From Candidatus Magasanikbacteria bacterium GW2011_GWC2_37_14 (GTDB lineage: Bacteria; Patescibacteriota; Patescibacteriia; Magasanikbacterales; UBA922), in NCBI GenBank assembly GCA_000990355.1, contig LBSX01000003.1, forward strand, positions 21,489 through 85,488: a DNA stretch of 64,000 bases, written 5' to 3'. Under the pieces are notes generated by a model. The model worked only from the letters and a program-made list of their open reading frames with translations, was not told where the DNA came from and made no database searches. Shown here piece after piece: positions 36,001-64,000 of the stretch (position 1 is the first letter of the stretch; each line of letters starts with the position of its first letter). A program made the position numbers and the translations under genes.

Positions 36001-39000
36001 CAATTTCTAAGTCTGGTGAATCTGTTTCTTGTACACCAACAGCCAAAAGTTGTCGGGCCTATACTGGTAATACGGGCAATAATATAAAAGAAATATTATT
36101 TAATGGCGAAGATATTGTTACTTTTGAACCCACGAGTACCGACCCTGGAGCTTTGACTGCGGCAGCCGCTGGTTGGCTTGGTACCAAACAAGTGCGACCA
36201 GAATCAATTCAAGTTGGTCAATATTCTTTGGGTGTACAAGGAGAAATAAAATATGAATTTGCAAGTAACGTAATAGAAAGTAATTCTTGGTATGAATTAA
36301 GTTTTTGGGCCAAAGGTAATACCCAAAATTTAAATATTAGATTTTATGGCAAAAATGCCACTGGTGGTTTTGAAGAGAAGGGTGAATTTACTTATAACCC
36401 CTACGTCCAAGTAAGTGTACCGGCAACTGTGGGTGCTGAATGGCAAGAATATAGTTTGGGCCCAATTTTGTTTAAGGGGAATGGTGAAAAGGAAGTACGT
36501 TTGTCTTTTTCTAGCAATGTTACCAACAAAGAATATTATTTAGACAATATTCGTCTAACCAAAATACAAGATCATACCTATTTAATAAAAAATTCCTGGA
36601 AAACTGTAGAAGGTTACGATGTACCGTTAACCTGTGACAATGAACCTGCCGATGGTTTGCCGGGCGTGGCTTTGGGTTGTAAGGCTTATCGCGATTCACA
36701 GGGTACACCAATTAGCGCCACTGGTTTTGAAAAATTATGTCGCCCCGAAGCTGTAGGGTGTCAAGAATTTTATGATACCTTCAACACTCCCAATGAAATT
36801 ACCACTAGTAGTTATAATGTGTGGTGTAATGGAAATGTCCAAGGTGTGTGTAAATTAACTTCTAGTACTGTTGAACTTGGCAAATGTGAAGTGCCAGTAG
36901 GGCAAACAGGTTGTTTGGTAGACAAAATTGTGGTGCCCGAGGGTGTGGCTTTTCCTAGTGGTATTACCAATGCTTCGGTAGTTACTTCTACTATTATTAT
37001 TCCTGCCGATACTCCTATTGGCCAACAGATTTATTTAACCAACCGCAGGTCTTTTAAATGTTCGGAAAGCGCTCTTGGTTGTACCAAAGTAGCTTTGGAA
37101 TCTCGTACAGTATTGGGCTTAAATAATTCACCTTCACTCTATGATTTTTCCGAAACTTACCTAAAAAATAATCCTGCGAATTATAGTGAAACTCTTTGTG
37201 CTGATTCTTTGGTAGGTTGTCAAGAATTTAAATCAGGAAGTGATATTACTTATTTTAAAAATCCCGAAATTTTGGGCAGTGTGCAGTGTAATTATAAAAC
37301 TTTGGTAGACATTGCTGGTACCAAATATTCTGGCTGGTTTAGAGATGGTGTGGGCACTTGTATCAATAATGCCGATAAATTTTGTCGGGCAGATAAAGAT
37401 TGTGGCACAGGCACCGAAGCCAAATGTAATACCAAAGATCCAGTACCTTGCTATGAAAATTATGTACAAGCTGGCTCAAATTATGGTGTTTGGTCCAATA
37501 GTTCAGACAATTACAAAGGATTGGTGGGTATGTGCCCGGCCGCACAAAATGGTTGTACCGAATTAATTGATCCAGCCGATACTTCACAAAACAATCCCGA
37601 AGGCAAACCTTATTATATTATTTTTAATCGTGACGTAGAAAAGCGCACTGGTGAGTGCGAAGGTAAGGTAAGCTTAAAAGATGGCTGTGTGTTGTTTGAT
37701 CGTACCGATCTCCCCAACAAAATTTATAATGTTGCTGAAACATATAAAAATAGTGAAAATTTAACAGATAATAAATATGGTTCGGTAACTCCTTCGACTA
37801 CAGTGTCGGCTTTGGAACCAAAATTAAAAGCCAATTTAATTTTAAAAGTAGAACGTGACCGTCAATGCAGTGAATGGCTACAGTGTAAGAGTTATGCTGT
37901 AAATTATAACGAAAAAGGCCAACCAACCAATTTGTGTGAAGAATTCAAAAGATGTACACAGTTAAATGATCGTGGTGAATGTATTTCTTGGGTACCAGAA
38001 AATGATGAGTTATATTCTCAAACACTTACCGAAGATTTTTATGTGGGTCGTTCTACAAATTGGTATGCTGAAGATTTTTCGGGGTATAGTTTGCTCAACA
38101 AATATCAAATTGGCAGTTATGTATATTTAAAAATGGGTTTGCCAAATGAACCAACATTTTTGGCACACACGGTTGATGATCGAACAAGACCAGAAGGTGC
38201 TGCTGGTTGTACTGTAGCCTTGGGGGCACAGCCCGACAGCAAAGATGGAGATATTTGTGGTTTGGCCAATGGTGGGCGTTGTTGGCAAGGAAATTGTGTT
38301 TATCCACTTGAGGGATCTTTTACAGAAGAAGCAGTTAAAGCAACTTTTGCTAGTTATTTAGAACAAGGTTCTTGTAAAGCTTATCCCGAAAAAGAAAGTC
38401 CTTTTGAAGTTTATCAAGCTACAGAAGATTTTGGTGATACAGGTGCACCAAAACAATTATTTGGTGTAACAAGTACTATTAGTGGATCTAAGTTTAGATG
38501 GAATTACCCTGGTAGAAAAGATAGTTTTGGTAAAGTTAATATTTGTCAGGATTATAAAGATACAGATGGTAATAATTATAAGTGTTCTTGTGGTTATGTT
38601 AAAGTAACTTATAAAAATAATGTAACTGATTACTGGCCAGCAACCAACAAAATAGAAAGTATTTTACCAAAGGGTGTCTGTAGTGGTGGGTCTTTGGATG
38701 GCATTCCTTGTGATCCAGATTATGGTGACAAAAATCAATGTGGTGATGTTCTAGAAAATCCGGGTCAATGTAGTCGGATTACCGAAAGAACCCAAAGAAA
38801 TGGGCAAACTGGTTTTTGTTTGGAATATGATTTAAGTAGACCACTAGGCAAAGCAAACACAGATTTTAAAAAACAAACCTATGCTTGTCTCACTTGGTTG
38901 CCAGTAGAAGTTTCGGCTTCGGGAATAGACACTTACAATTATTATGAAAAAGCTGGTTATCACCCCGGCATAGACGCCAACGCTTCTCTTGGACAAGTTT

Positions 39001-51350: not shown

Positions 51351-51782
51351 ATGCAACAATTTGTAGTACCACAATTTATTGATGTTGAAGATAAAATTTT
51401 TGGGCCGATTACTACCCGTCAATTTTTAATTTTGTTGGCAGCAGGCTTGCTGATTTTTGTATTCTATAAATTAACAGATTTTGCTTTGTTTGTAACTCTT
51501 ACGGCAGTGTTGGGCGGGTTGGCACTGGTATTTGCTTTTGTAAAAATAAATGGCCAGCCTTTTCATTATTTTTTGTTAAATTTATTACAAACTTTGCGCA
51601 AACCCTCTTTAAGGGTCTGGAAGAAAAATTTGTCTGATGAAGAATTAAATTTTTTACGTAAATTAAATACCGAGAAAGCACCTGAAAAAATTGCTAGAAA
51701 AGAAGTAAAATCTGGGCATATCCATGATTTAGCATTACTCGTTAATACTGGTGGTTTTTATAAACCAGAGGATGAATTGTAA
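51351..51782 (+). CDS. PrgI/VirB3-like small membrane protein of type IV secretion systems
   Basis: MQQFVVPQFIDVEDKIFGPITTRQFLILL followed by 2 TM segments; directly upstream of VirB4. Confidence 0.5.
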   Translation: MQQFVVPQFIDVEDKIFGPITTRQFLILLAAGLLIFVFYKLTDFALFVTLTAVLGGLALVFAFVKINGQPFHYFLLNLLQTLRKPSLRVWKKNLSDEELNFLRKLNTEKAPEKIARKEVKSGHIHDLALLVNTGGFYKPEDEL

Positions 51783-51787
51783 TTATC

Positions 51788-51925
51788 TGTCATCCTGAAT
51801 TTATTTCAGGATCTCCTGTTAGCATTAAAAGTGTTGGGGATGCTGAAATGGTACTTGTCCTGAATTTATTTCAGGATTCAGCATGACAATTGCATTCAGG
51901 ATGACAACCAAGTTCAGCATGACAA
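51788..51925. repeat. array of family A half-sites (tgtcatcctgaa-tttat-ttcaggat; atgctgaa; gtcctgaatttatttcaggat; ttcagcatgaca x2; ttcaggatgaca)
   Basis: Six or more copies of the 12-nt half-site TGTCATSCTGAA or its reverse complement within 140 bp, upstream of the VirB4 genes. Confidence 0.65.
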
Positions 51926-51959
51926 ATAGAACGTTTTGTGTTAAAATGACAAGTGTAAT

Positions 51960-52649
51960 ATGGCCAAGAAACAAGAAATGAAAGGAAGAGTAAATAATAA
52001 GCCTTCGACCCAGGCTTATTTGCCTATTGCCGAAATTAGAGACGGGGTAGTTATCTTAAAAGATGGCACTTTGCGTAGTGTGCTAATGGTTTCTAGTATA
52101 AATTTTGCTTTAAAATCCGAAGATGAACAAAATGCTTTGGTATCGGCTTATGTGGGTTTTTTAAATTCATTGGATTTTCCTTTACAAATATTAATGCAGT
52201 CGCGACGTTTGCAAATAAAACCATATTTAGAAAAATTAGCCAAAATAGAACGTGAACAAACCAATGAATTGTTGCAAGTTCAAGTAGCCGATTACAAGGC
52301 TTTTATCGAAGAATTTGTAGAAATTGGGCAAATTATGACCAAGAGATTTTATGTAGTAGTGCCTTATGACCCCTTATCCAACAACAAAAAAAGCTTTTGG
52401 TCTAGATTTAAAGAAGTTTTAAAACCCGCAATTACTTTGCGCCTAAAAGATGAAAGGTTTAAAAAAAGAATAGAAGATTTGGAAATGCGTTTGCGTCAAG
52501 TAAGGAGCGGCTTAGAAAGTATGGGTTTGCAAATTGTACAACTAGACACCCAATCATTAATAGAATTATTTTATTCCACTTACAACCCCGATACTGCTTT
52601 TAGTGAGCAGTTGGGCAAAATAGGTGATATCCAAATAGAAAATATTTAA
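51960..52649 (+). CDS. VirB4/TraE-family N-terminal domain, encoded as a separate ORF
   Basis: YLPIAEIRDGVVILKDGTLRSVLMVSSINFALKSEDEQ, typical of the VirB4 N-terminus; stop TAA at 52647-52649 followed by ATG at 52651. Confidence 0.55.
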   Translation: MAKKQEMKGRVNNKPSTQAYLPIAEIRDGVVILKDGTLRSVLMVSSINFALKSEDEQNALVSAYVGFLNSLDFPLQILMQSRRLQIKPYLEKLAKIEREQTNELLQVQVADYKAFIEEFVEIGQIMTKRFYVVVPYDPLSNNKKSFWSRFKEVLKPAITLRLKDERFKKRIEDLEMRLRQVRSGLESMGLQIVQLDTQSLIELFYSTYNPDTAFSEQLGKIGDIQIENI

Positions 52650-52650
52650 T

Positions 52651-54519
52651 ATGGCCTTTAAGCCAATGCAAAATTTAAAGATTGATAATACTTTGAGTGG
52701 AGAATCAGTAAAAGAAAAAGCAAAAAAACAAATTGCCGAGGAAATTGTAAGTTTGGAAGAAGAAAAAGTTTATCGTCGCGGTACCGTGGCAATTCGGGAT
52801 TTAATTTCTCCTGCTGGTTTGCGCATCGAAAATAATTATATTCAATTGGGTGATGTATTTTTGCGCACTATTTTTGTAATCACTTATCCACGTTATATTG
52901 CCGTAGGTTGGGGCATGCCGATTTTAAATTTAAACATTACCATGGATGTTTCCATGTTTTTTTATCCAGTGCCTTCACCAATTATTTTAAAACAACTAAA
53001 GAAAAAAGTAGGTGCTTTGGAAGCACAAATTACTGGTGATGCCGAAAAAGGCGCTGCTCGCGACCCAATTCACGAAACTGCCCTTCGCGATATTGAACAA
53101 TTGCGTGATGATTTGACCCAAGGAGTGGAACATTTTTTTCAATTTTCTTTTTATGTAACTGTTTATGCCAAAGATTTAGACGAACTTAACCGGACTACCG
53201 AAGATGTAGAAAATATTTTTGGTTCCAAATTAATTTATAGTAAGCACGTGTTGTATCAAGCCGAACAAGGTTTTACTTCTACTTTGCCCCTCGGCATCGA
53301 CGAATTATCGATTGCTTTCAACATGAATTCTTCGCCAATTGCGGCTTCTTTTCCTTTTATTTCTTCGGAATTAACTTCGGATGATGGAATTTTGTATGGC
53401 ATTAATCGTCATAATAATAGTTTGATTATCTTTGATCGTTTTAGTTTACAAAATGCCAATATGGCAGTGTTTGCTACATCGGGTGCTGGCAAATCTTATA
53501 CCGTAAAGCTAGAAGTATTGCGCAGTTTAATGATGGGTGTGGATATTATTATTATTGATCCGGAAATGGAATATCAGCATTTGTGCGAAGCAGTGGGAGG
53601 TACTTATGTAAATATTTCTTTGGCTGCCGAAAGCAAGGTTAATCCTTTTGATTTACCACGACCAGTGGGTCAGCAGATTTCTACCGAAGATGTAATTCGT
53701 AGTGCCATTATTACCTTAAAAGGCTTAATCCGCATAATGTTCGGCAGTCTCAATGTTACTGAAGATTCCATTATGGATCGGGCTTTAAAAGAAACTTATG
53801 CCAAAAAAGATATTACGCCAGATTCTGATTTGGGTAGTATTGAACCGCCAATTATGCAGGATTTGCTAGAAGTTTTAGAAGGCATGCAAGGGGCAGAAAA
53901 TTTGGTGCTACGTTTAAGAAAATTTACCGAGGGTACTTTTTCGGGATTGTTCAATTCGCCCACCAATGTAAATATGAATAATCAGTTGGTGGTATTTTCG
54001 GTGCGTGATTTGGAAGACGAACTTCGCGCTATGGCAATTTACAATCTTATCAACTATGTTTGGAATATAGTTCGCAGTGAGCGCAAAAAAAGAATTTTAA
54101 TAATTGATGAAGCTTGGTGGTTAATGACTCACGAAGATAGTGCCAAATTTATTTATGCTTTGGTAAAACGTTGTCGCAAATATTATTTGGGGGTTACCAC
54201 TATTACCCAAGATGTGAGCGACTTTTTGCGTTCTCCCTATGGTCAGTCTATTGTAACCAATTCGGCTTTACAACTTTTATTGCGTCAAACACCAGCGGCA
54301 ATTGATATTGTACAAAAAACTTTTATGCTTACCGAAGGCGAAAAATATTTATTATTGGAAAGTGCAGTGGGTGAAGGAATATTTTTTGCTGGTTTAAAAC
54401 ATGCCGCGATTAAAGTAATTGCTTCTTATACCGAAGATCAGTTGGTAACTTCGGATCCCAAGCAATTAATGGAAATAGAAAAAGCTAAAAAAGAATACGA
54501 AGAACAAATGCTTAAATAA
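52651..54519 (+). CDS. VirB4/TrsE-family type IV secretion ATPase (C-terminal part, Walker A/B)
   Basis: Walker A ATSGAGKSYTV, Walker B ILIIDEAWWL, ITQDVSDF; the upstream part RGTVAIRDLISPAGLRIENNYIQLGDVFLRTIFVITYPRYI is typical. Confidence 0.75.
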   Translation: MAFKPMQNLKIDNTLSGESVKEKAKKQIAEEIVSLEEEKVYRRGTVAIRDLISPAGLRIENNYIQLGDVFLRTIFVITYPRYIAVGWGMPILNLNITMDVSMFFYPVPSPIILKQLKKKVGALEAQITGDAEKGAARDPIHETALRDIEQLRDDLTQGVEHFFQFSFYVTVYAKDLDELNRTTEDVENIFGSKLIYSKHVLYQAEQGFTSTLPLGIDELSIAFNMNSSPIAASFPFISSELTSDDGILYGINRHNNSLIIFDRFSLQNANMAVFATSGAGKSYTVKLEVLRSLMMGVDIIIIDPEMEYQHLCEAVGGTYVNISLAAESKVNPFDLPRPVGQQISTEDVIRSAIITLKGLIRIMFGSLNVTEDSIMDRALKETYAKKDITPDSDLGSIEPPIMQDLLEVLEGMQGAENLVLRLRKFTEGTFSGLFNSPTNVNMNNQLVVFSVRDLEDELRAMAIYNLINYVWNIVRSERKKRILIIDEAWWLMTHEDSAKFIYALVKRCRKYYLGVTTITQDVSDFLRSPYGQSIVTNSALQLLLRQTPAAIDIVQKTFMLTEGEKYLLLESAVGEGIFFAGLKHAAIKVIASYTEDQLVTSDPKQLMEIEKAKKEYEEQMLK

Positions 54520-55319: not shown

Positions 55320-55967
55320 ATGCTACATGGATTAATTAGTTTAATTAAAGATTATATTTTTCCCGTATATTGTCTAGGTTGCCAAACAGAAGGTGAGTGG
55401 GTTTGTAAAAATTGTTATAACAACATAAACGCGCAGAGCGTTTTTTGTTTTACAAATTTAGAGGATAATTTTGTTAATTTATTAATTTCGCCTTATCTTT
55501 ATCAAGAAAATGAACTGATCGGCAAAATTATTCAATATTTTAAATATCATTATGCAGAAGAATTAGAGCAGGTAATCTTTAATTTAATAAATAAATTTTT
55601 ATTAGAAAATAAAAATTTATTTGCAGAGATTGATTGTGTTATACCTGTGCCATTACATGCTCGGCGTTTGGCAGAGCGGGGATTTAACCAAGCCGAAGTT
55701 ATTGCTAAAATTTTAGGTGCTATTTTGAATAAGCCAGTTTTAAATAATTTGGGGCGTGTTCGATATACCAAGCAACAAGCCAAACTAAACAAATTGGCTA
55801 GGCAAGAAAATGTGGCTAGTGCTTTTGTGGTTAATGGTAAAATAAGCAATAATATTTTAATTGTTGATGATGTGTTTACTACAGGTGCGACTACAAAAGA
55901 ATGTGCCAAAGTGCTAAAACAAGCCGGAGCTAAAAAAATTATTGCCTTTACTTTGGCACGAGGTTAA
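55320..55967 (+). CDS. comFC: ComFC-family phosphoribosyltransferase-domain protein
   Basis: N-terminal C-x2-C...C-x2-C zinc motif; PRTase motif ILIVDDVFTTGAT. Confidence 0.75.
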   Translation: MLHGLISLIKDYIFPVYCLGCQTEGEWVCKNCYNNINAQSVFCFTNLEDNFVNLLISPYLYQENELIGKIIQYFKYHYAEELEQVIFNLINKFLLENKNLFAEIDCVIPVPLHARRLAERGFNQAEVIAKILGAILNKPVLNNLGRVRYTKQQAKLNKLARQENVASAFVVNGKISNNILIVDDVFTTGATTKECAKVLKQAGAKKIIAFTLARG

Positions 55968-55975
55968 AATTATTA

Positions 55976-56004
55976 TTGACAGAGAATTAATTTTGAGGTA
56001 AGAT
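55976..56004 (+). promoter_or_regulatory. candidate promoter TTGACA-17-TAAGAT upstream of the tRNA pair
   Basis: ttgaca gagaattaattttgagg taagat, about 15 nt before tRNA 1. Confidence 0.35.
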
Positions 56005-56018
56005 AAATTGCAACTTAT

Positions 56019-56105
56019 GGAGAGATGGCTGAGTGGTCGATAGCAGCAGTTTACTAAACTGCAGTCCCCGTAAGGGGACCTAGGGTTCGAATCCCTATCT
56101 CTCCG
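56019..56105 (+). tRNA. type-II tRNA, Ser-like (G73, long variable arm) with anticodon loop TTACTAA, i.e. anticodon ACU by canonical numbering; no encoded CCA
   Basis: Hand-folded: acceptor GGAGAGA / TCTCTCC, D-stem GCT / AGC with an 11-nt loop, anticodon stem GCAGT / ACTGC, 18-nt variable hairpin GTCCCCGTAAGGGGAC, T-arm TAGGG-TTCGAAT-CCCTA. Confidence 0.7.
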
Positions 56106-56158
56106 CCTTCGCGCGCCGAAGCGCGCTTCGGCGGACAAAGTCCGCTAAATTAGACTTT

Positions 56159-56246
56159 GGAGAGGTGTCAGAGCGGTCTATCGTCCAGCTTTGCTAAAGC
56201 TGCAGGGGGCAACCCCTCGCGGGTTCGAATCCCGCCCTCTCCGCCA
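56159..56246 (+). tRNA. tRNA-Ser (anticodon GCU), CCA encoded
   Basis: Acceptor GGAGAGG / CCTCTCC, anticodon stem CAGCT / AGCTG with loop TTGCTAA, variable hairpin GGGGGCAACCCC, T-loop GGTTCGAATCC, then G-CCA. Confidence 0.85.
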
Positions 56247-56407
56247 GGACAATTTAGTATCGGATAGATTCATCTAGCCGAGACTGAAGGGCGACCCTAG
56301 TGTATGATTATTCCTTTTGGTAGAATAAAAGTCGGTATAAAAAGCCGTCTTTTATTTATCCCAAACAAGTGGTACAATATATTCAATGTATTTAAATAAA
56401 TGATAAT

Positions 56408-56605
56408 ATGTCGACGATTGGTAAAAATATAAAAAATTTTAGAGAATTGAAAAAAATATCGCAGGATCGTCTTTCTAAACTTGCTGATATTTCATCTAAT
56501 ACAGTGGCGAAGCTAGAGTTAGATGATAGTACCAATCCAACTATTGATACTTTACAAAAGATAGCTGAAGCACTTGGTGTTAAGGTAGAAGATCTCATAA
56601 AATAA
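56408..56605 (+). CDS. XRE-family (Cro/CI-type) HTH transcriptional regulator
   Basis: IKNFRELKKISQDRLSKLADISSNTVAKLE...IDTLQKIAEALGV. Confidence 0.7.
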   Translation: MSTIGKNIKNFRELKKISQDRLSKLADISSNTVAKLELDDSTNPTIDTLQKIAEALGVKVEDLIK

Positions 56606-56608
56606 TTT

Positions 56609-59305
56609 ATGATCAATTTAGTAACCTTACAAGAAAATCTTGAAAATCTCAGTCAAAACTTTTCTAAAGAATCGTTTATTTTTGATTTGCTTTCTGTGTA
56701 TGAGTTACCCAAAAGCACTATTTCTTTATTGTCGAAAAGTCCTTCAAAATTATCTGGCAAAGAAGATCAGATTATTTTAAAAAACAAAGTACTTTTCCAC
56801 ATAACTACCCTTGAGGAAGATGAGCATGTTGCGATTGATGCACTACAAAAAGATAAGTCTTCATACAAGTTCAACCCGCGATTTATTATCGTTACAGACT
56901 TCGTAACCTTTTTAGCAATTGATACAAAAACAAAAGAAACACTTGATATTCAAATTGAGGATCTTGGCAAGCACTACGCTTTTTTCTTGCCATGGTGTGG
57001 TATGGAAAAATCTCAGCATGTAAATGAGAACCCTGCTGATATTCGTGCCGCCTACAAAATGGATAAGTTGTATCAAGCAATTGTGAACGACAATACTGAA
57101 TACTATAAAAACAACAGCCATGATCTAAATATATTTCTTTCACGCCTTTTGTTCTGTTTCTTTGCTGAGGATACTGGAATATTCCCTAAAACAGGAATGT
57201 TTACTAACTCTGTGACATCACACACCCATGAAAATGGCAACGAAATGGGTATTTATTTTTCAACTTTTTTTGATGTTTTAAATACTAAAGATTCTGAACG
57301 ATCAAAATATGCTTCACATTTCTTAGAATTTCCATATGTAAACGGAGGTCTTTTTGAAAGTAAGATTAAATTACCTACATTTACGGCAAGTTCACGAAAA
57401 CTGATTATTGAATGTGGAAAGTTGGACTGGAGTTCAATTAACCCAGATATTTTTGGATCTATGATTCAAGCTGTTGTTCATCCTGGCCAGAGAGAGAACC
57501 TTGGGATGCACTACACATCCGTTCCAAATATAATGAAAGTTATTGAACCTCTCTTTTTAAATAATCTCTATGAGGAAGTAAAAAATTCAAAGAATGATAC
57601 TAAAAAACTTGTAAAGCTCCGTGAACGAATCGCAAAAATTAAGATATTTGACCCCGCTTGTGGATCAGGTAATTTTCTTATTATTTCTTACAAAGAATTA
57701 TGTAAATTAGAGATTGAAATAATTAGATTACTAAATTTACAAAATTCATTTGCTACACAAGAAGGTTGGAATAGTACAATGTCAGGTATTACCTTAAATA
57801 ATTTTTATGGTATAGAGATAGACGATTTTGCACATGAAATAGCAAAGCTGTCTCTATATTTAGCTCAGCATCAAATAAACATTAAATTCCAAGAAGAGTT
57901 CGGAAAACTTAAACCAACCCTTCCTCTTAAAGAGAGCGGTAGAATCGTATATGCAAATGCAACTAGAATTGACTGGGATGAGGTTTGTCTTAAGAAAGAC
58001 CGTTTTGGGAATGAATATGAAATATATATTATCGGGAACCCACCATATTTAGGTTCAAAAAATCAGGATATTGAGCAAAAAAATGATATGGCTATTACTT
58101 TTAAGGGGGTGGAAGATTATAAAAAGTTAGATTATGTTGCTTGTTGGTTTTACATTGCATCTTCGTATATTCAAAATACAAATGTACAGTATGCTTTTGT
58201 GACTACCAACTCTATTACACAAGGTGAACAAGTATCCCTACTTTGGAACCTTATTTTAAGCAGAAATCAAGAAATTTTTCTTGCGCACCAATCATTCAAA
58301 TGGACAAATAATGCTAAGGGAAATGCAGGAGTTGCTGTTGTGGTTATTGGAATTAGAAATATTAATGATTCTGAAAAGTATCTTTATAACCAGGATCACA
58401 GACAGCTAGTAAAAAACATAAGTCCATATTTAACCAATACTTCAAACATTTTTATTTTACCACGAAACAATTCTTTAGGAAATTTTCCCTTAATGATTAC
58501 AGGTAGTGGTCCTGGTGATGACGGAAATTTGATTTTAGATATAGATGAAAAAGAAAAACTGATTATACAAAATAATAAGATTGAAAGTTTCTTAAAAAAA
58601 TATATTGGAGCGCAAGAATTTATTGGTAATACATATAGATATTGTATTTATATTACACAAGAAAATGTGAGTGCGGCTTATAAAATAACTCAATTAGTAC
58701 AACGATTTGAAAAAGTAAAAGCATTCAGATTGGCAAGTAAAAAAGAAGGAACCAAAAAAAAGGCCGTTACACCACATTTTTTTGATGAAGATCGATACAG
58801 GGATGATGAATTTATTTTAGTTCCTAAGGTAGGTTCTGAAAGACGAGAATATCTCCCAATTGGGTATTTTGATGGAACATTTCTTCCTTCTAACACGACA
58901 AAAGTTATTTATAATGCTAAACCTTGGCTTTTCGGTATCTTGTCTTCTAAAATGCACATTGTTTGGGTAAGAGCAGTTGCCGGAAGGTTAAAAACAGATA
59001 TGCAATATTCAAACACACTATGCTATAACACTTTCCCATTTCCGAATGTAACAGAAAAGCAAAAAGAGTCTCTCTCAAGTCATGTGTACAATATTTTAGA
59101 AGAACGAGAGAGGTATCCAGAAAAATCAATGGCAGAACTGTATGATCCAGATAAGATGCCTAATGGTTTAAGAGAAGCTCATAGATACTTAGATCAAGCC
59201 ATAGATCAGATATACCGAGGTAAACCGTTTGAAAGTGACGATGACCGACTAGCTCACTTGTTCAAACTTTACGAAGAGATGATTATTAGAAAAAATAACG
59301 AATAA
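56609..59305 (+). CDS. MmeI-family type IIL restriction-modification enzyme (N-terminal endonuclease, gamma-class N6-adenine methyltransferase, C-terminal TRD in one polypeptide)
   Basis: Motif order FDPACGSGNFL (I) then IIGNPPYLG (IV). Long colinear similarity to MmeI as recalled: LLFCFFAEDT, FPYVNGGLF, YGIEIDDFAHEIAKLSLYLAQHQ, VTTNSITQGEQVSLLW, FKWTN. Size 898 aa (MmeI is 919 aa). Confidence 0.75.
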   Translation: MINLVTLQENLENLSQNFSKESFIFDLLSVYELPKSTISLLSKSPSKLSGKEDQIILKNKVLFHITTLEEDEHVAIDALQKDKSSYKFNPRFIIVTDFVTFLAIDTKTKETLDIQIEDLGKHYAFFLPWCGMEKSQHVNENPADIRAAYKMDKLYQAIVNDNTEYYKNNSHDLNIFLSRLLFCFFAEDTGIFPKTGMFTNSVTSHTHENGNEMGIYFSTFFDVLNTKDSERSKYASHFLEFPYVNGGLFESKIKLPTFTASSRKLIIECGKLDWSSINPDIFGSMIQAVVHPGQRENLGMHYTSVPNIMKVIEPLFLNNLYEEVKNSKNDTKKLVKLRERIAKIKIFDPACGSGNFLIISYKELCKLEIEIIRLLNLQNSFATQEGWNSTMSGITLNNFYGIEIDDFAHEIAKLSLYLAQHQINIKFQEEFGKLKPTLPLKESGRIVYANATRIDWDEVCLKKDRFGNEYEIYIIGNPPYLGSKNQDIEQKNDMAITFKGVEDYKKLDYVACWFYIASSYIQNTNVQYAFVTTNSITQGEQVSLLWNLILSRNQEIFLAHQSFKWTNNAKGNAGVAVVVIGIRNINDSEKYLYNQDHRQLVKNISPYLTNTSNIFILPRNNSLGNFPLMITGSGPGDDGNLILDIDEKEKLIIQNNKIESFLKKYIGAQEFIGNTYRYCIYITQENVSAAYKITQLVQRFEKVKAFRLASKKEGTKKKAVTPHFFDEDRYRDDEFILVPKVGSERREYLPIGYFDGTFLPSNTTKVIYNAKPWLFGILSSKMHIVWVRAVAGRLKTDMQYSNTLCYNTFPFPNVTEKQKESLSSHVYNILEERERYPEKSMAELYDPDKMPNGLREAHRYLDQAIDQIYRGKPFESDDDRLAHLFKLYEEMIIRKNNE

Positions 59306-59309
59306 TTTT

Positions 59310-61247
59310 ATGAAAACCATTCAAGTCGCAGAAGCAACATACGCACAAACTGGAGAAAGTACCAAAATCAATAGTTTTGGTATGCGTGAAATGCAGGCAA
59401 AAGCATTCGAAAAAAGAACTGCGCAGTACCTCCTTTTGAAAGCTCCTCCAGCATCAGGAAAATCTCGAGCTTTAATGTTCCTTGCTTTGGACAAGCTCAC
59501 TAATCAAGGTATCAAGAAAGTAATTGTAGCTGTTCCTGAAAAATCAATCGGCGGATCTTTCAGCGAAACTAATTTAACTGATAGTGGATTTTTCGCAGAC
59601 TGGAAACCAAATGATAATTATAATCTTTGTACCCCTGGCCTTGATAATGCCAAAGGAAAGGTTGAAGCGTTTAAGAACTTTATGGAAAACAATGAGAAGA
59701 TTCTTATCTGTACCCACGCTACATTTCGTTTTGCTTGTGAACAAATTGAAGATACAAAATTTAATGACATACTCATTGCTATAGATGAATTCCACCATGT
59801 TTCTGCTGATAAAGAGAGTAGTATTTTAGGACGTGTATTGCATGGGATAATGACTAACTCAAATGCTCACGTTATTGCGATGACTGGATCATATTTCCGA
59901 GGTGACGGTGTCGCTGTTTTGTTACCAGAAGACGAGGCTAAATTTCAGAAAGTAACATATAACTATTATCAACAATTGAATGGTTACACCTATTTAAAGA
60001 CTTTGGGCATCGGATATCACTTTTATCAAGGCAGGTACACATCAGCAATCGCTGAGGTTTTGGATACGAATAAGAAAACGATTTTACATATTCCAAACGT
60101 AAATTCTGGGGAATCTACAAAAGACAAACTTAATGAGGTTGATTTGATTTTAGATATTATTGGTGAAGTAGATCATCAAGATCATGAGACTGGAGTTATT
60201 TATGTGAAGCGTGATGGTGATGGGAAAATTCTAAAAGTAGCAAACCTTGTTGATGATTCAGTAGATCGAGATAAAATTTCAAACTATCTTCGTACTATGA
60301 GAAAAGAAGATGACATGGATATTATTATTGCTCTTGGTATGGCAAAAGAAGGTTTTGACTGGCCATATTGTGAACATGCTTTAACTGTTGGTTACCGTAG
60401 TTCACTTACTGAAATTATTCAGATCATTGGTCGCTGTACTCGTGATAGTGCAAATAAGACTCATTCACAGTTTACAAACCTTATCGCACAGCCCGATGCA
60501 AAAGATGGTGAAGTTAAGGTGTCTGTAAACAATATGCTTAAAGCAATAACTTGTTCTTTGCTTATGGAGCAAGTCATGGCCCCTCACTATAACTTCAAAC
60601 CACGCTTTCCAAATGATGATACTGCATTTACTCCAGGTGAAATTAAAATAAATGGTTTTAAAGCACCAAGCACTGATCGTGTACGAGAGATTATTGAATC
60701 TGATATCAACGACCTTAAAGCTTCAATTCTTCAAGATGACCAGATGATTAAGGCATTGCCTGGAAATGTTGACCCAGAGGTAATAAACAAGGTAATGATT
60801 CCAAAGATTATTCAAATCAAATATCCTGATCTCACAGATCTTGAAGTTGAAGAAGTTCGTCAGCATGTAGTAGTTGATTCTGTAATTAAAAATGGAGAAA
60901 TAAAAGAAGTTGGAGATAAGAAATTTGTTCGTATGGCAGGTCAATTTGTTAATATTGACGATCTTAATATCGACCTTATCGACCGCATTAATCCATTTCA
61001 AGAAGCTTTTGAGATTCTTTCAAAGTCAGTTACATCAAATATTCTTAAGGTTATACAAGATACAATTGATTCATCACGAATTGAAATGACACCTGAAGAG
61101 GTTAAGATTCTATGGCCTAAAGCCAAGGAGTTCACCATACAAACGGGTCGAAAGCCCGACATTTCATCATCTGATCCTCTTGAGAAGCGTTTGGCAGAAG
61201 CCGTTCTTTATTTGAAGAAACTTAAGGCTGAACAAATTCAAAATTAA
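59310..61247 (+). CDS. SF2 (DEAH-type) helicase/ATPase, co-operonic with the MmeI-like gene
   Basis: Motif I APPASGKSRA, motif II IDEFHH, motif III MTGSYF, motif VI QIIGRCTR; 4-nt gap to the upstream gene. Confidence 0.7.
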   Translation: MKTIQVAEATYAQTGESTKINSFGMREMQAKAFEKRTAQYLLLKAPPASGKSRALMFLALDKLTNQGIKKVIVAVPEKSIGGSFSETNLTDSGFFADWKPNDNYNLCTPGLDNAKGKVEAFKNFMENNEKILICTHATFRFACEQIEDTKFNDILIAIDEFHHVSADKESSILGRVLHGIMTNSNAHVIAMTGSYFRGDGVAVLLPEDEAKFQKVTYNYYQQLNGYTYLKTLGIGYHFYQGRYTSAIAEVLDTNKKTILHIPNVNSGESTKDKLNEVDLILDIIGEVDHQDHETGVIYVKRDGDGKILKVANLVDDSVDRDKISNYLRTMRKEDDMDIIIALGMAKEGFDWPYCEHALTVGYRSSLTEIIQIIGRCTRDSANKTHSQFTNLIAQPDAKDGEVKVSVNNMLKAITCSLLMEQVMAPHYNFKPRFPNDDTAFTPGEIKINGFKAPSTDRVREIIESDINDLKASILQDDQMIKALPGNVDPEVINKVMIPKIIQIKYPDLTDLEVEEVRQHVVVDSVIKNGEIKEVGDKKFVRMAGQFVNIDDLNIDLIDRINPFQEAFEILSKSVTSNILKVIQDTIDSSRIEMTPEEVKILWPKAKEFTIQTGRKPDISSSDPLEKRLAEAVLYLKKLKAEQIQN

Positions 61248-61248
61248 T

Positions 61249-62403
61249 ATGGATAAAAAAGATTTACTAGATTTAATAGATGATGATGATTTAGGACTTC
61301 TTGATATAGAGAAGAAAACTGTTTCGGTTACGCCGGATGATCGATTATCAGAATCATTTATGGAAATAAATGAGTTCTTTTCATTACATAATATCGAGCC
61401 AAAAAGTGGTGGAGACATTCATGAACATAAACTAGCATCACGTCTCAAACATATTAGAGAAAACAAAGAACAAAGAGACTTTCTTAGTAAGTACGATACT
61501 CATGGTCTGTTAAAAATCGAGAATAAAGACATCGATACAGTAAATGATATTTTTGAAGACGATGATTTAGATCTTCTTTCAATTGAAGATAGTTCTGTTT
61601 TTAATATAAAGAATGTGCCAGAAATAAAACAAGATCGTTCTGATCCTGACTTTGTTGCACAGAGAAAGATTTGTGCTGATTTTGATCAGTATGAACATTT
61701 GTTCGCACAGGTTCAAAGAGATTTGAAAAATGGCACAAAAAATCTCGCGACTTTTGTAGAAAATGAAATGAAACAGGGGGATTTCTTTGTTCTTAGTGGT
61801 GTTTTAATATATCTAGAAAAAATCTATGATCCATACCGAGGTAATAGTCAAAAAATAAATAGAAGAACTCGCTGTATATATGAGAATGGTACCGAATCAA
61901 GTGTACTTTTACGTTCGCTAGGAAAGAGATTGTCTGATGTAGGTTACGCCATAAAAGATAATGTAAATGTTGTAAGTGTTGAAGATGGCGATTCAGAAAC
62001 CGGTTATATTTATGTTCTCAAGTCACTAAGTAACAATCCTAGAATTGCTAGCACAAAAAACCTTTTTAAAATTGGCTTCTCAACCACTAGTGTTGAAGAA
62101 CGTATAAAGAACGCGCAACAGGATCCTACTTATCTTATGTCCCCAGTTTCTATTGTTGCTACCTACAGATGTTTTAATATGAATCCTCAAAGATTTGAGA
62201 GATTAGTACATCGTTTCTTTGGTGATTCATGTCTAGATATTGAGATCACTGACAACAACGGAAAAAACTACAATCCAAAAGAGTGGTTTATTGCCCCAAT
62301 TAGGGTGATTGGGAATGTTATTGAATTAATTATCAAAGGAGAGATTGTTAATTACTTTTATGATAAAAACGCAGAATCAATTATAAAGATTTCTAATCCT
62401 TAA
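61249..62403 (+). CDS. T5orf172/MUG113 (GIY-YIG-related) domain protein with an acidic repeat N-terminus
   Basis: GYIYVLKS...LFKIGFSTTSVEERIKN...PVSIVATY matches the T5orf172 core; N-terminal acidic repeats DLLDLIDDDDLGLLDIE / IFEDDDLDLLSIED; 1-nt gap after the helicase gene. Confidence 0.6.
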   Translation: MDKKDLLDLIDDDDLGLLDIEKKTVSVTPDDRLSESFMEINEFFSLHNIEPKSGGDIHEHKLASRLKHIRENKEQRDFLSKYDTHGLLKIENKDIDTVNDIFEDDDLDLLSIEDSSVFNIKNVPEIKQDRSDPDFVAQRKICADFDQYEHLFAQVQRDLKNGTKNLATFVENEMKQGDFFVLSGVLIYLEKIYDPYRGNSQKINRRTRCIYENGTESSVLLRSLGKRLSDVGYAIKDNVNVVSVEDGDSETGYIYVLKSLSNNPRIASTKNLFKIGFSTTSVEERIKNAQQDPTYLMSPVSIVATYRCFNMNPQRFERLVHRFFGDSCLDIEITDNNGKNYNPKEWFIAPIRVIGNVIELIIKGEIVNYFYDKNAESIIKISNP

Positions 62404-63718
62404 GTAGTGTTAATATTTTATCTTTATAAACAATTCTTGATCTCAAATTTCCAAGCAGTTCTCTCTTCTCGCTAACCGATCCCTCCTTTAAAATATACTT
62501 AGCATAGTTCCGTATATCTGTGTCTTCTCTATTCTTCATTTTATCAGTACTACCAAGTACTGACCTTTGAAATATATTAAATCTGGCAATTTCATTTTCT
62601 AGCTTTTGTCGCATTCCAAGTTCGTTAATATTTACTTTATCCAATATCTTTAATAGCTCAATTATTAAATCTTCCTCTCGTATATACTTATTTTTACAAT
62701 TTCTGTCTCTCGCTCTTGAACATGAATAGTAAATATATCTTGCATGTGTGCCATCTTTTAATTGTTTATATTTTTCTTCAGCAGAAATTCCACTGCCACA
62801 ATACCCACAGGTAAATAACTTAGTAAATGAGAACTCGTGATTTTCTCGAACTATCTGGTCTCTTTTTAATTGGGCTCTAGCTTTTTCAAATAATTCTTGG
62901 GTTATTAGTGGTTCATGTTTTCCTGTATACCAATTTCCACTTCCTCTTGGACTTTCAAATACTCCATAATAAAAACTGTTATTAATTATTCTATATACCC
63001 CAGCCAATGTCAGCGGTTTATTGCCACGAGTATAAAAATTTAGTTCATGCTTTAGCCAATTATATATTTTTCTGCCCGAATAATGTTCATTAGCAACTTT
63101 TTCAAACATTTTTTTAATTGCTGGAGCACGCAGTGGATCAACTATCACTTGGCATTTCTTATCCATTAGTTTTTGATTTAGATATCCAAGTGGTGCCACA
63201 CCTGGCCACAATCCCATTTCTACTCTAGTTCTTAAACCTCGTTTTACATTTATTCCTCTATTATCATTTTCAAGTTTGGCTTGCGATCCCAATATCATCA
63301 ACAGGAACTTTTCGTTTGGATTATTACCAAATCTCTGTCCGAACGTCCTTATTTCTACAAGAGCGCCCGAATCCATTAAATCTACTATTTTCCCTAAGTC
63401 CCCAGCATTTCTGGAAATTCTGTCTGGTGCCCAAGTCAAAATACCATTGAATTTACCTTGTTTTAATTCCTCTATGATTTCATTGAAAATTGGCCTTTGA
63501 CCAGTTTCTTTGGCCGAGTGGGATTCTCTTTTCATTGTAACCACATCTAAATTCTCCTTTTCTGCCAGCTGAAGCATCTCCTTAATTTGGCTATCTATGG
63601 AGAGAACCTGCCTTTCCTCTGATTCTGTTGATTTTCTTGCGTAAAGGCAGTATTTTACCTTAATTTGGGTCGTTATTTTGCCCGTAGACCCCGTGGGCAT
63701 TAGTGCGATATTCATCAT
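62393..63718 (-). CDS. large serine recombinase (resolvase catalytic domain + recombinase domain + zinc ribbon)
   Basis: YARKSTESEERQVLSIDSQ (catalytic Ser region), GILTWAPDRISRN, C-terminal CGYCGSGISAEE ... YYSC. Confidence 0.8.
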   Translation of the reverse strand: MMNIALMPTGSTGKITTQIKVKYCLYARKSTESEERQVLSIDSQIKEMLQLAEKENLDVVTMKRESHSAKETGQRPIFNEIIEELKQGKFNGILTWAPDRISRNAGDLGKIVDLMDSGALVEIRTFGQRFGNNPNEKFLLMILGSQAKLENDNRGINVKRGLRTRVEMGLWPGVAPLGYLNQKLMDKKCQVIVDPLRAPAIKKMFEKVANEHYSGRKIYNWLKHELNFYTRGNKPLTLAGVYRIINNSFYYGVFESPRGSGNWYTGKHEPLITQELFEKARAQLKRDQIVRENHEFSFTKLFTCGYCGSGISAEEKYKQLKDGTHARYIYYSCSRARDRNCKNKYIREEDLIIELLKILDKVNINELGMRQKLENEIARFNIFQRSVLGSTDKMKNREDTDIRNYAKYILKEGSVSEKRELLGNLRSRIVYKDKILTLLKD

Positions 63719-63854
63719 ATACCTAATTAATGACGCTAACTCCCGAAGGAGTCCAGAGCGTCCCGAGTCCTAGCTGTTGGTAACTTTTACAAGCTTTACA
63801 TTTATAGTTAAAGTGGTAAAATCAGTGTATTATTAAGAGTTTTATAATAAAAGT

Positions 63855-64000
63855 ATGCCGCATCTCATCCCGATTGAATTGATTGAAAAAATATCAAAAG
63901 GTCCTTCTGACACAAAAATAGAAAGTGTTTCAAATTTACAAAATTACATCCAAGATCTTCTGGGTGATAGTCATCACACTTTTTTGCAAGGTTCTTATAG
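63855..64000 (+). CDS. 5' part of a hypothetical ORF running off the window
   Basis: Open frame only (MPHLIPIELIEKISKGPSD...). Confidence 0.2.
   Translation, partial: MPHLIPIELIEKISKGPSDTKIESVSNLQNYIQDLLGDSHHTFLQGSY

What the first reader, a model, noticed from the sequence alone, without database searches (positions are those of the whole stretch)
56408..63718. Integrative defence island next to tRNA-Ser: XRE regulator, MmeI-like IIL RM enzyme, DEAH helicase, T5orf172 protein, large serine recombinase
Four genes (56408, 56609, 59310, 61249) sit on one strand with 3-, 4- and 1-nt gaps. They are followed by a convergent large serine recombinase, and the whole block starts about 160 nt after a tRNA-Ser gene. 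That is the layout of an integrated mobile defence island. MmeI-family enzymes are known as single-polypeptide, stand-alone RM systems. A tightly co-transcribed SF2 DEAH helicase and a GIY-YIG-related T5orf172 protein are not part of any named RM or defence architecture I can recall. It could be a split Type ISP-like, helicase-assisted IIL system with an extra nuclease effector. This is the best candidate in the window for an undescribed multi-component defence system.
Basis: partly seen in the sequence, partly recalled or inferred. Interest (0 to 1): 0.8.

Follow-up and report, generated by a model that had tools for sequence, protein, structure and literature searches.

The report
YeeABC restriction-like system in CPR island
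The three co-transcribed genes are a well-conserved member of the already described YeeA(DnmA)–YeeB–YeeC methylase–helicase–nuclease system, carried here as cargo in a serine-recombinase mobile element that sits next to a tRNA-Ser gene, so it is a known kind of defence system and not a new one.

Summary
In detail: XRE (56408-56605), MmeI-like methyltransferase (56609-59305), SF2 helicase (59310-61247), T5orf172 protein (61249-62403) and a convergent large serine recombinase (62393-63718) follow tRNA-Ser(gct).

The claim that this is an undescribed system is wrong. The triad is the YeeA(DnmA)-YeeB-YeeC cluster. Morgan et al. 2009 described MmeI homologues lacking the PD-ExK nuclease motif that are always flanked by a DEAD helicase and a GIY-YIG-like protein. 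Fernandez et al. 2023 confirmed the synteny. Piel et al. 2021 showed phage defence in Vibrio crassostreae.

- The window helicase is 63% identical to B. subtilis YeeB, and the T5orf172 protein is 38% identical to YeeC.
- In 80 species-level genomes the triad is complete wherever the flank suffices.
- The MmeI-like protein has no similarity to the MmeI nuclease segment.
- Its target recognition domain (TRD) is swapped between near-identical cassettes.
- yeeB has dN/dS of about 0.01.

Likely mechanism (inferred): a split, Type I/ISP-like restriction system.

The island idea is supported in altered form. Relatives of the recombinase lie convergent to tRNA-Ser genes, next to a conserved terminal motif that is also present at 56248-56263. 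Variable, often defence, cargo lies in between, and XRE-YeeABC fills that slot here. No att repeats or distal end were found.

The parts
56019..56107 (+). tRNA-Ser with the unusual anticodon ACT. It is the first of two tandem tRNA-Ser genes and is not followed by the element motif.
   Evidence: ARAGORN; Rfam tRNA 57.8 bits; no motif after it.
56159..56246 (+). tRNA-Ser(GCT). Its 3' end abuts the mobile element and is the presumed integration target.
   Evidence: In 40 of the 44 recombinase loci that have a convergent tRNA downstream, that tRNA is tRNA-Ser.
56248..56263 (+). GACAATTTAGTATCGG, the conserved terminal motif of the recombinase element family. It starts 2 nt after the tRNA.
   Evidence: Under the one-mismatch pattern, 54 of 80 recombinase loci have a match downstream of the recombinase. 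A few of these (L102, L138, L154, L158) look like chance matches. The motif follows 34 tRNA-Ser and 3 other tRNAs, but not the other tRNA-Ser genes in the same loci.
56264..56407 (+). Conserved element-end spacer (GCGACCC box near 56290), a terminator-like hairpin at about 56321-56365, and a TGgTACAAT extended -10 region upstream of the XRE gene.
   Evidence: Alignment A3; RNA fold z = -2.9; sequence read directly. The promoter assignment is inference.
56408..56605 (+). XRE/Cro-C1 HTH protein, 65 aa. Probably a controller (C-protein-like) regulator of the cargo operon. Not a conserved part of YeeABC.
   Evidence: Pfam HTH_3; PADLOC Control_protein 6e-8. Absent from the 80 genome loci. A 47%-identical XRE heads a Type I RM cargo in the same slot in L148.
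56609..59305 (+). YeeA/DnmA-type MmeI homologue, 898 aa: an N6-adenine methyltransferase with a target recognition domain and without the MmeI PD-ExK segment.
   Evidence: - Pfam and PADLOC matches.
- MmeI structure 5HR4 aligns only from query residue 89 onwards, E = 2e-183.
- FDPACGSGNF and NPPY motifs are present.
- No [DE]xK in residues 1-104.
58442..59047 (+). Target recognition domain (aa 612-813), the hypervariable part of the cassette.
   Evidence: 31% identity to L007 here, against 92% for the N-terminal domain and 86% for the C-terminal domain. Nucleotide alignments break between 58206/58332 and 58944/59024.
59310..61247 (+). YeeB-type SF2 DExH helicase/translocase, 645 aa.
   Evidence: - 63% identity to B. 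subtilis YeeB and 53% to V. crassostreae YeeB.
- Invariant PPASGKS, DEFHH, MTGSYFRGD and QIIGRxTR motifs.
- dN/dS of 0.012-0.015.
61249..62403 (+). YeeC-type protein, 384 aa, with a C-terminal T5orf172 (GIY-YIG-superfamily) domain. It is the presumed nuclease.
   Evidence: - 38% identity to B. subtilis YeeC, E = 3e-73.
- Conserved G252-x-I-Y255, K274-I-G276, R285 and E345.
62393..63718 (-). Large serine recombinase, 441 aa. It is the integrase of the surrounding element, not part of YeeABC.
   Evidence: Pfam; CcrB-like, 1e-37. Its 80 closest relatives (73-90% aa identity) never neighbour YeeABC but face tRNA-Ser.
63856..64000 (+). Start of a CD-NTase (CBASS-type cyclase) gene that runs off the window. 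The element continues here.
   Evidence: Identical contigs L005 and L006 carry a 292-aa product with SMODS (faint) and CD_NTase_C hits. It is followed by an SNase gene and a ParB-N6_N4 methyltransferase gene.

Best explanation
Genes 56609-62403 are an intact member of the YeeA(DnmA)-YeeB-YeeC family, a three-subunit, methylation-based, restriction-like defence system.

Proposed mechanism (inferred):
- YeeA is an MmeI-type gamma-class N6-adenine methyltransferase with its own TRD. It recognises an asymmetric site and methylates one strand of host DNA.
- YeeA has lost the MmeI nuclease segment. At unmethylated sites on incoming DNA it recruits or activates the YeeB DExH translocase and the YeeC T5orf172/GIY-YIG nuclease, which cut the DNA. 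This makes it a split Type I / Type ISP-like machine.
- The XRE protein probably acts as a controller that times expression.

The cassette is cargo in a variable slot of a CPR integrative element. The slot lies between the element's tRNA-Ser-proximal end (motif at 56248) and the 3' end of its large serine recombinase gene.

Shown: family membership, obligate synteny, intact motifs, TRD swapping, strong purifying selection, and the position of the slot.
Inferred: who cuts, translocation, control by XRE, and integration by the recombinase.
For: Literature:
- Morgan 2009 defined exactly this group and proposed this mechanism. YeeA expressed alone has no endonuclease activity.
- Synteny was confirmed with the helicase at +1 and the T5orf172 gene at +2.
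- Inactivating yeeA/yeeB sensitised V. crassostreae to one phage clade.

Direct homology: 63% to YeeB, 53% to Vibrio YeeB including the C-terminal 40 aa that B. subtilis lacks, and 38% to YeeC.

Synteny: at least 586 species genomes encode the helicase. In the best 80 loci the MmeI-like gene lies upstream and the T5orf172 gene downstream wherever the flank allows. The same triad occurs on Bacillus and Proteus plasmids.

Sequence features:
- No similarity to MmeI residues 1-106.
- MTase, helicase and GIY-YIG-like motifs are conserved.
- TRD 31% identical against 86-92% for the N- and C-terminal domains.
- yeeB dN/dS 0.012-0.015 at dS of about 1-1.5.

RM-like context:
- Guest genes typical of Type I RM operons (RhuM, Schlafen-ATPase, Fic, YhcG, Abi_C) are inserted between yeeA and yeeB in about 40% of loci.
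- A canonical Type I RM headed by a related XRE occupies the same slot in sister element L148.

Element: the terminal motif and the convergent tRNA-Ser are shared with recombinase relatives. 15 of them have only 108-120 nt between the motif and the recombinase stop codon, and about 35 have 0.6-7.6 kb of cargo there.
Against: - No biochemistry exists for any family member in the searched literature.
- In B. subtilis, deleting yeeB or yeeC did not change phage sensitivity, and the recognition motif is not avoided by phages.
- YeeA keeps a conserved D97...D105-x-K107 in the part of the N-terminal domain it shares with MmeI, so a residual nuclease role is not strictly excluded.
- The distal end of the element, att sites and an empty target site were not found.
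- PADLOC has no YeeB or YeeC model.
Confidence: 0.75

Rival explanations
1. The cluster is a decayed restriction system. Only the methyltransferase works, as an orphan epigenetic regulator, which is what was proposed for B. subtilis DnmA. The helicase and T5orf172 genes would be relics.
For: B. subtilis data show no defence phenotype and no effect on transformation.
Against: - yeeB dN/dS is 0.012-0.015 with near-saturated synonymous sites.
- All helicase and GIY-YIG-like motifs are intact.
- The window YeeB has the C-terminal extension present in the active Vibrio system and missing in B. subtilis.
- The triad is complete in all loci with room.
Confidence: 0.07
2. The three proteins defend against phage without classical cleavage of unmethylated DNA. 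Possibilities are a BREX-like block of replication, or methylation-status sensing that triggers abortive infection through the YeeC nuclease acting on host or phage nucleic acid.
For: - The MTase core is related to PglX and DrmMI.
- Phage genomes do not avoid the DnmA site.
- T5orf172 domains have no demonstrated catalytic mechanism in this context.
Against: - There are no BREX or DISARM partner genes.
- The GIY-YIG-like catalytic residues are conserved.
- TRD swapping and Type I-RM-like guest genes point to ordinary RM-type self/non-self logic.
Confidence: 0.13
3. One reading: a stand-alone MmeI-type IIL restriction-modification enzyme that has picked up a helicase and an extra nuclease, forming a previously undescribed multi-component system.
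For: Full-length match to the PADLOC Type IIG model, E = 8.5e-301. All five MmeI Pfam domains score.
Against: - The nuclease-bearing N-terminal segment is not homologous to that of MmeI.
- The architecture was published in 2009 and studied since.
- Direct homology to YeeB and YeeC.
Confidence: 0.02
4. YeeABC lies outside the recombinase element. The element merely integrated next to a pre-existing chromosomal YeeABC locus beside tRNA-Ser.
For: - None of the 74 closest recombinase relatives with room carries YeeABC.
- YeeABC occurs in other CPR genomes without any recombinase.
- The recombinases next to YeeABC in L001 and L007 are only 53% identical to this one, while YeeB is 97% identical.
Against: - The element-specific terminal motif lies on the tRNA side of the cassette and the recombinase on the other side, so the cassette is bracketed by element features.
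- In relatives with no cargo, the motif and the recombinase stop codon are 108-120 nt apart.
- yeeC and the recombinase gene overlap by 8-11 nt in three genomes, which leaves no room for a junction.
Confidence: 0.12

Closest known systems
YeeA(DnmA)-YeeB-YeeC cluster (B. subtilis; V. crassostreae yeeAB; 'second group' of MmeI homologues of Morgan et al. 2009)
   Same: - Same three proteins in the same order and orientation.
- 63% identity to B. subtilis YeeB, 53% to Vibrio YeeB and 38% to YeeC.
- The MTase lacks the MmeI nuclease segment.
- Same Gx(I/V)Y...K(I/V)G motif in YeeC.
   Different: - The host is a CPR bacterium (Candidatus Magasanikbacteria).
- An XRE gene precedes the operon.
- The cassette is cargo of a serine-recombinase element at tRNA-Ser.
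- YeeB is full length, unlike the C-terminally shorter B. subtilis protein.
MmeI and the Type IIL/IIG single-chain restriction-modification enzymes
   Same: MTase, helicase-spacer, TRD and C-terminal domains align over residues 89-891, E = 2e-183. Single-strand adenine methylation is likely shared (inference).
   Different: There is no D70/E80/K82-bearing N-terminal segment. The protein is obligately linked to a helicase and a GIY-YIG-like protein, whereas true MmeI enzymes have no conserved neighbours.
Type ISP enzymes (LlaGI, LlaBIII) and Type I RM systems
   Same: Combination of a gamma-class N6-adenine MTase with a TRD, an SF2 ATP-dependent translocase and a nuclease. The guest genes are the same as those found in Type I operons (knowledge of the families).
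   Different: - The system is split into three polypeptides.
- The nuclease is T5orf172/GIY-YIG-like and not Mrr/PD-ExK.
- There is no separate HsdS, because the TRD is fused to the MTase.
- The helicase is not an HsdR homologue by Pfam.
tRNA-associated cargo-carrying integrative elements (for example tycheposons; genomic islands at tRNA genes)
   Same: A site-specific recombinase at one end, adjacency to a tRNA, and variable cargo that includes defence genes. A minority of tycheposons (27 of 937 elements) use large serine recombinases.
   Different: This is a different host phylum. There is a conserved ParB-MTase / ~142 aa / ~528 aa / recombinase module. The junction lies at the very 3' end of tRNA-Ser without a detectable tRNA-fragment repeat. 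No relationship to tycheposon hallmark genes was tested.

Membership tests
YeeA(DnmA)-YeeB-YeeC system | MmeI-homologous MTase-TRD protein that lacks the PD-ExK motif in its first ~100 residues | tested here: met
   Residues 89-891 align to MmeI 107-902. Residues 1-88 give no match even at E <= 10. There is no [DE]xK in residues 1-104. Caveat: a conserved D97/D105-x-K107 lies in the region shared with MmeI.
YeeA(DnmA)-YeeB-YeeC system | Immediately downstream DEAD/DExH helicase homologous to YeeB | tested here: met
   63% identity over 605 aa to B. subtilis YeeB and 53% to V. crassostreae YeeB. Both reference sequences were taken from Fig. S5 of PMC9973331, which is machine-read text.
YeeA(DnmA)-YeeB-YeeC system | Next gene encodes a T5orf172/GIY-YIG-like protein homologous to YeeC | tested here: met
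   38% identity, E = 3e-73. Pfam T5orf172 7e-14.
YeeA(DnmA)-YeeB-YeeC system | Conserved co-occurrence of the three genes across genomes | tested here: met
   Across 80 loci from 80 species, both partners are present wherever the contig leaves room.
YeeA(DnmA)-YeeB-YeeC system | m6A methylation of an asymmetric site, and protection against phage | not testable with these tools
   Requires methylome sequencing and plaque assays. Only MTase motif integrity could be checked.
MmeI-type Type IIL restriction-modification enzyme | N-terminal PD-ExK nuclease (D70, E80, K82 of MmeI) in the same polypeptide | tested here: not met
   Published assays found no endonuclease activity for YeeA-type proteins.
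MmeI-type Type IIL restriction-modification enzyme | Stand-alone gene without conserved partner genes | tested here: not met
   The helicase and T5orf172 genes are obligate partners.
Type ISP restriction enzyme | Single polypeptide combining an Mrr-type nuclease, helicase, MTase and TRD | tested here: not met
   There are three separate ORFs, and the nuclease candidate is T5orf172. It may work like a Type ISP enzyme, but it is not a member.
Type I restriction-modification system | Separate HsdM, HsdS and HsdR subunits | tested here: not met
   There are no HsdS, HsdR or HsdM_N Pfam hits, and the TRD is fused to the MTase. For contrast, L148 carries a true Type I system.
Large-serine-recombinase integrative element | Recombinase with Resolvase, Recombinase and zinc-ribbon domains | tested here: met
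Large-serine-recombinase integrative element | Defined attL/attR, and an empty or excised form | tested here: inconclusive
   - One end is defined by a conserved motif abutting tRNA-Ser.
- No distal end, no inverted copy of the motif and no tRNA-fragment repeat were found.
- One relative (L131) is flanked by two identical full tRNA-Ser(act) copies 14.2 kb apart.
PADLOC/DefenseFinder-type named defence systems (DISARM, BREX, MADS, Pbe, others) | Match of the helicase and T5orf172 proteins to system-specific models | tested here: not met
   Only weak partial hits were found: PbeA 4e-11 over 90 aa, and PDC-S57 1e-5. YeeA matches the generic Type IIG model.

The most novel reading that the evidence does not exclude
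The surrounding element may be an undescribed family of small integrative elements of CPR/Patescibacteria. In this reading a large serine recombinase targets the extreme 3' end of tRNA-Ser genes of any anticodon. The elements would share a conserved terminal sequence (GACAAYTTNNTATCGG ... GCGACCCGAGTGC) and a ParB-methyltransferase backbone module. They would keep a plug-in slot between the terminus and the recombinase gene, through which defence cassettes (YeeABC, Type I RM, UvrD- or AAA_13-type systems) are exchanged between elements whose recombinases are only about 53% identical.

Separately, the near-housekeeping conservation of YeeB (dN/dS of about 0.01; 60-74% identity across phyla) could mean that the helicase engages an invariant target or partner, in a way not seen for other restriction translocases.
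Probability: 0.35. Interest if true: 0.45.

Novelty: new member of a known kind. Interest (0 to 1): 0.28.

Why it matters
For annotation:
- Standard defence finders label this locus as a single-protein 'Type IIG RM' and miss its two obligate partners. Systems of this kind are therefore mis-described in at least 586 species genomes.
- The locus shows that an intact, strongly constrained YeeABC system circulates widely in the reduced genomes of CPR bacteria, as exchangeable cargo of a tRNA-Ser-associated recombinase element.

For biology, the family itself is the open question, not this copy. A widespread restriction-like system, proposed in 2009, still has no biochemical mechanism. Its helicase is unusually conserved for a defence gene.

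Tried and rejected
1. Search for an att-type direct repeat of the tRNA-Ser 3' end or of the 56001-56410 region, within the window and in identical contigs reaching window-equivalent 71,247. Only chance matches of 15 nt or less were found.
2. Search for tRNA or spacer k-mers upstream of the recombinase in 80 relatives. Only L131 has a second tRNA copy.
3. An inverted copy of the terminal motif as a distal end was not found.
4. Sequence search of solved structures with YeeB and YeeC gave no hits.
6. Rfam search on 55900-56500 found nothing for the spacer.
7. RNAalifold on 33 spacers predicted no consensus structure. I did not pursue an RNA reading. Some copies show direct repeats of CGAGTG, which look more like protein-binding sites.
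8. Nucleotide comparison of intergenic flanks between the window and L001/L007 revealed no shared att-like sequence on the left. On the right there is only a short TAATTAATGAC box upstream of the recombinase start.
9. Considered and rejected: DISARM, BREX, MADS and Pbe membership, and recombinase-YeeABC co-mobility as a fixed 7.4-kb unit.
Full report
**1. Observation**

ORFs and spacing:
- Four ORFs lie on the + strand at 56408-56605, 56609-59305, 59310-61247 and 61249-62403.
- The gaps between them are 3, 4 and 1 nt.
- A fifth ORF, 62393-63718, is on the - strand and overlaps the last of the four by 11 nt.

ARAGORN finds tRNA-Ser(act) at 56019-56107 and tRNA-Ser(gct) at 56159-56246. The block therefore starts 161 nt after a tRNA-Ser gene.

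- HTH_3 in the first ORF.
- All five MmeI domains in the second.
- ResIII, DEAD and Helicase_C in the third.
- T5orf172 and MUG113 in the fourth.
- Resolvase, Recombinase and Zn_ribbon_recom in the fifth.

The window comes from Candidatus Magasanikbacteria GW2011_GWC2_37_14, a CPR bacterium. This rests on 100% identity of both queried proteins to that record. Base composition shows no clear step at the block.

**2. What the triad is**

A full-text search for T5orf172 plus MmeI led to Fernandez et al. 2023 (PMC9973331) and from there to Morgan et al. 2009 (PMC2731913).

Morgan et al. split MmeI homologues into two groups:
- One group has the PD-ExK motif (D70, E80, K82 of MmeI) and no conserved neighbours.
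- The other group lacks the motif, differs from MmeI in the first ~100 residues, and is 'invariably' next to a DEAD-family helicase (YeeB-like) and a GIY-YIG-motif protein (YeeC-like).

They found no endonuclease activity for YeeA alone. They proposed that the MmeI-like subunit supplies specificity and modification, while the helicase and nuclease subunits cut, in a Type I-like fashion.

Fernandez et al. confirmed the synteny (helicase at +1, T5orf172 at +2). They found no defence phenotype in B. subtilis.

Piel et al. (bioRxiv 10.1101/2021.05.05.442762) showed that yeeAB mediates resistance to one phage clade in Vibrio crassostreae.

**3. Membership tested here**

Figure S5 of PMC9973331 is held as text and gives the B. 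subtilis and V. crassostreae sequences.
- The window helicase is 63% identical to B. subtilis YeeB over 605 residues.
- It is 53% identical to Vibrio YeeB over the full length. This includes the C-terminal ~40 residues that B. subtilis lacks, which Fernandez et al. suspected to matter.
- The T5orf172 protein is 38% identical to YeeC, E = 3e-73.

The MmeI-like protein:
- It aligns to the MmeI structure 5HR4 only from residue 89 (MmeI 107) onwards, E = 2e-183.
- Its first 88 residues alone find nothing at E <= 10.
- Residues 1-104 contain no [DE]xK.
- Across 59 family members the first 90 residues hold no conserved acid-x-Lys motif.
- A conserved D97/D105-x-K107 lies in the segment shared with MmeI. 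There MmeI has D115 and D123 but no lysine. I cannot strictly exclude a role for it.

**4. Recurrence**

Distribution:
- A scan of one genome per species found at least 586 genomes with the helicase.
- In the best 80 loci, which span many phyla at 61-88% identity, an MmeI-like gene is upstream and a T5orf172 gene directly downstream in every locus with enough flank. The only loci missing a partner are cut by a contig end.
- The triad is also on Bacillus and Proteus conjugative plasmids, annotated 'DNA methyltransferase / DEAD helicase / GIY-YIG nuclease'.
- The helicase family is compact. Few full-length 50%-identity clusters exist.

In about 40% of loci, 0.5-6 kb is inserted between yeeA and yeeB. 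The guest genes are RhuM (10 loci), Schlafen AlbA_2 with an ATPase (6 loci), Fic, PDDEXK_3, YhcG/DUF1016, Abi_C and HTH-M78. From general knowledge of Type I RM loci, these are the same kinds of guests found inside hsd operons. That fits an RM-like system.

**5. Is this copy functional?**

Motifs:
- The MTase motifs FDPACGSGNF and NPPY are present.
- The helicase motifs PPASGKS, DEFHH, MTGSYFRGD and QIIGRxTR are invariant.
- YeeC keeps G252-x-I-Y255, K274-I-G276, R285 and E345. These match the Gx(I/V)Y...YK(I/V)G motif marked in Fig. S5.

Comparison with CPR homologues:
- The helicase is 97% identical in protein but only 84-86% in DNA.
- Nei-Gojobori dN/dS is 0.012-0.015 with dS of about 1-1.5. 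This is strong purifying selection and argues against a relic.
- Between the window and L007, the YeeA N-terminal domain is 92% identical, the C-terminal domain 86%, the MTase domain 73% and the TRD only 31%. This is the domain swapping expected of a specificity module.

**6. The XRE and the recombinase are not parts of the system**
- None of the 80 genome loci has an XRE homologue. Only two, both CPR, have a recombinase homologue.
- Other CPR genomes carry 82-94%-identical helicases within complete triads and with no recombinase nearby.
- Of the 80 closest relatives of the recombinase in metagenomes (73-90% aa identity), none of the 74 with room has YeeABC beside it.
- The recombinases next to YeeABC in L001 and L007 are only 53% identical to this one.

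**7. The island idea nevertheless holds, in a different form**

tRNA adjacency in the recombinase relatives:
- A tRNA gene lies convergent to the recombinase's 3' end in 44 loci.
- In 40 of those it is tRNA-Ser. Anticodons gga, cga, tga, gct and act are all represented.

The terminal motif:
- The tRNA is followed within 2-4 nt by a conserved sequence, GACAAYTTNNTATCGG, then a GCGACCCGAGTGC box and a terminator hairpin.
- The window has the same motif at 56248-56263, directly after tRNA-Ser(gct).
- Other tRNA-Ser genes in the same loci, including the window's tRNA-Ser(act), lack it. It therefore belongs to the element and not to tRNA-Ser flanks in general.

The cargo slot:
- In 15 relatives the motif is only 108-120 nt from the recombinase stop codon.
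- In about 35 relatives, 0.6-7.6 kb of cargo lies in between.

Sampled cargo:
- A canonical Type I RM headed by an XRE that is 47% identical to the window's (L148).
- An AAA_13 ATPase.
- UvrD-type and SF1 helicases.
- Some non-defence genes.

Backbone: on the other side of the recombinase, 25 of 48 loci share the module ParB-N6_N4 methyltransferase, ~142 aa, ~528 aa, recombinase.

In the window's genome the ParB-MTase lies beyond the window end, after a CD-NTase gene and an SNase gene.

XRE-YeeABC is therefore cargo in a variable slot of a recombinase element whose tRNA-proximal end is at about 56247. The element extends past 64000. The cassette has been exchanged between elements with divergent recombinases.

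**8. What remains unshown**
- No distal end, att pair, tRNA-fragment repeat or empty site was found.
- One relative, L131, is flanked by two identical complete tRNA-Ser(act) genes 14.2 kb apart.
- tRNA-associated cargo elements that occasionally use large serine recombinases are known in Prochlorococcus as tycheposons. I did not test any relationship to them.
- The mechanism of YeeABC (recruitment, translocation, which protein cuts) is inference from domain content and from the 2009 proposal.

**9. Verdict**
The function guess and the mobile context hold, while the novelty claim and the 'stand-alone MmeI enzyme' reading do not.
- The locus is a new, intact member of a known kind.
- Interest is modest. 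It lies in the unsolved biochemistry of the family, the unusual conservation of YeeB, and the tRNA-Ser-associated recombinase element with a defence cargo slot.

Noticed in passing
window 56247-56370; L095-L174 (for example L098 2249-2373, L136 4068-4192): A conserved ~70-nt sequence directly follows the tRNA-Ser that faces the recombinase: GACAAYTTNNTATCGG, one to three CGAGTG/GACCCGAGTG boxes, often a matching AARTTGT arm, then a terminator hairpin. Rfam has no match, and RNAalifold predicted no consensus structure. It may be the recombinase's site or another protein-binding array.
   Followed up: partly
window 56019-56107; also L114, L126, L131, L150, L172: A tRNA-Ser with anticodon ACT (A at the wobble position, unusual for bacteria) recurs near these recombinase elements. 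In L131, two identical full copies flank a 14.2-kb stretch that contains the recombinase.
   Followed up: partly
L012, L033, L026, L090, L031 and others (between yeeA and yeeB): About 40% of YeeABC loci in other phyla carry guest genes between the methyltransferase and the helicase. The guests are RhuM, Schlafen AlbA_2 with an ATPase, Fic, PDDEXK_3, YhcG/DUF1016, Abi_C and HTH-M78.
   Followed up: partly
window 59310-61247 compared with L001, L007, L091 and L011-L090: The YeeB helicase is unusually conserved for a defence gene. It is 60-74% identical across phyla, and dN/dS is about 0.012-0.015 within CPR although synonymous sites are near saturation.
   Followed up: partly
window 63856-64000 and beyond (L006 7666-13527): Downstream of the recombinase lie a CD-NTase (CBASS-type) gene, small ORFs, an SNase-domain gene and a ParB-N6_N4 methyltransferase. 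In L001 the corresponding region carries Thoeris genes (ThsB-TIR, ThsA-Macro).
   Followed up: partly
L100-L163 (upstream of the recombinase); L001 6876-10041; L007 14436-17614: A conserved co-directional backbone module, ParB-N6_N4 methyltransferase, ~142 aa, ~528 aa, large serine recombinase, is present in 25 of 48 relatives with room. The functions of the two middle genes are unknown.
   Followed up: partly
window 63719-63745; L001 6800-6825; L007 14358-14383: A short conserved box, CATATAYYTAATTAATGAC, lies immediately upstream of the recombinase start codon in elements whose recombinases are only 53% identical. It may be a regulatory or recombination site.
   Followed up: no
window 51351-54519: Type IV secretion-like genes (PrgI, a TraC-like gene and a VirB4/TraG P-loop ATPase) lie just upstream of the ComF-like gene and the tRNAs.
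   Followed up: no
window 13105-24993 and 33018-41765: Two giant ORFs of 3962 and 2915 aa lie further upstream. I did not examine them.
   Followed up: no
window 56609-59305 (PADLOC model PDLC03598): The generic PADLOC 'REase_MTase_IIG' model matches this nuclease-less YeeA protein end to end (E = 8.5e-301). Automated tools will therefore report YeeABC loci as single-protein Type IIG RM systems.
   Followed up: no
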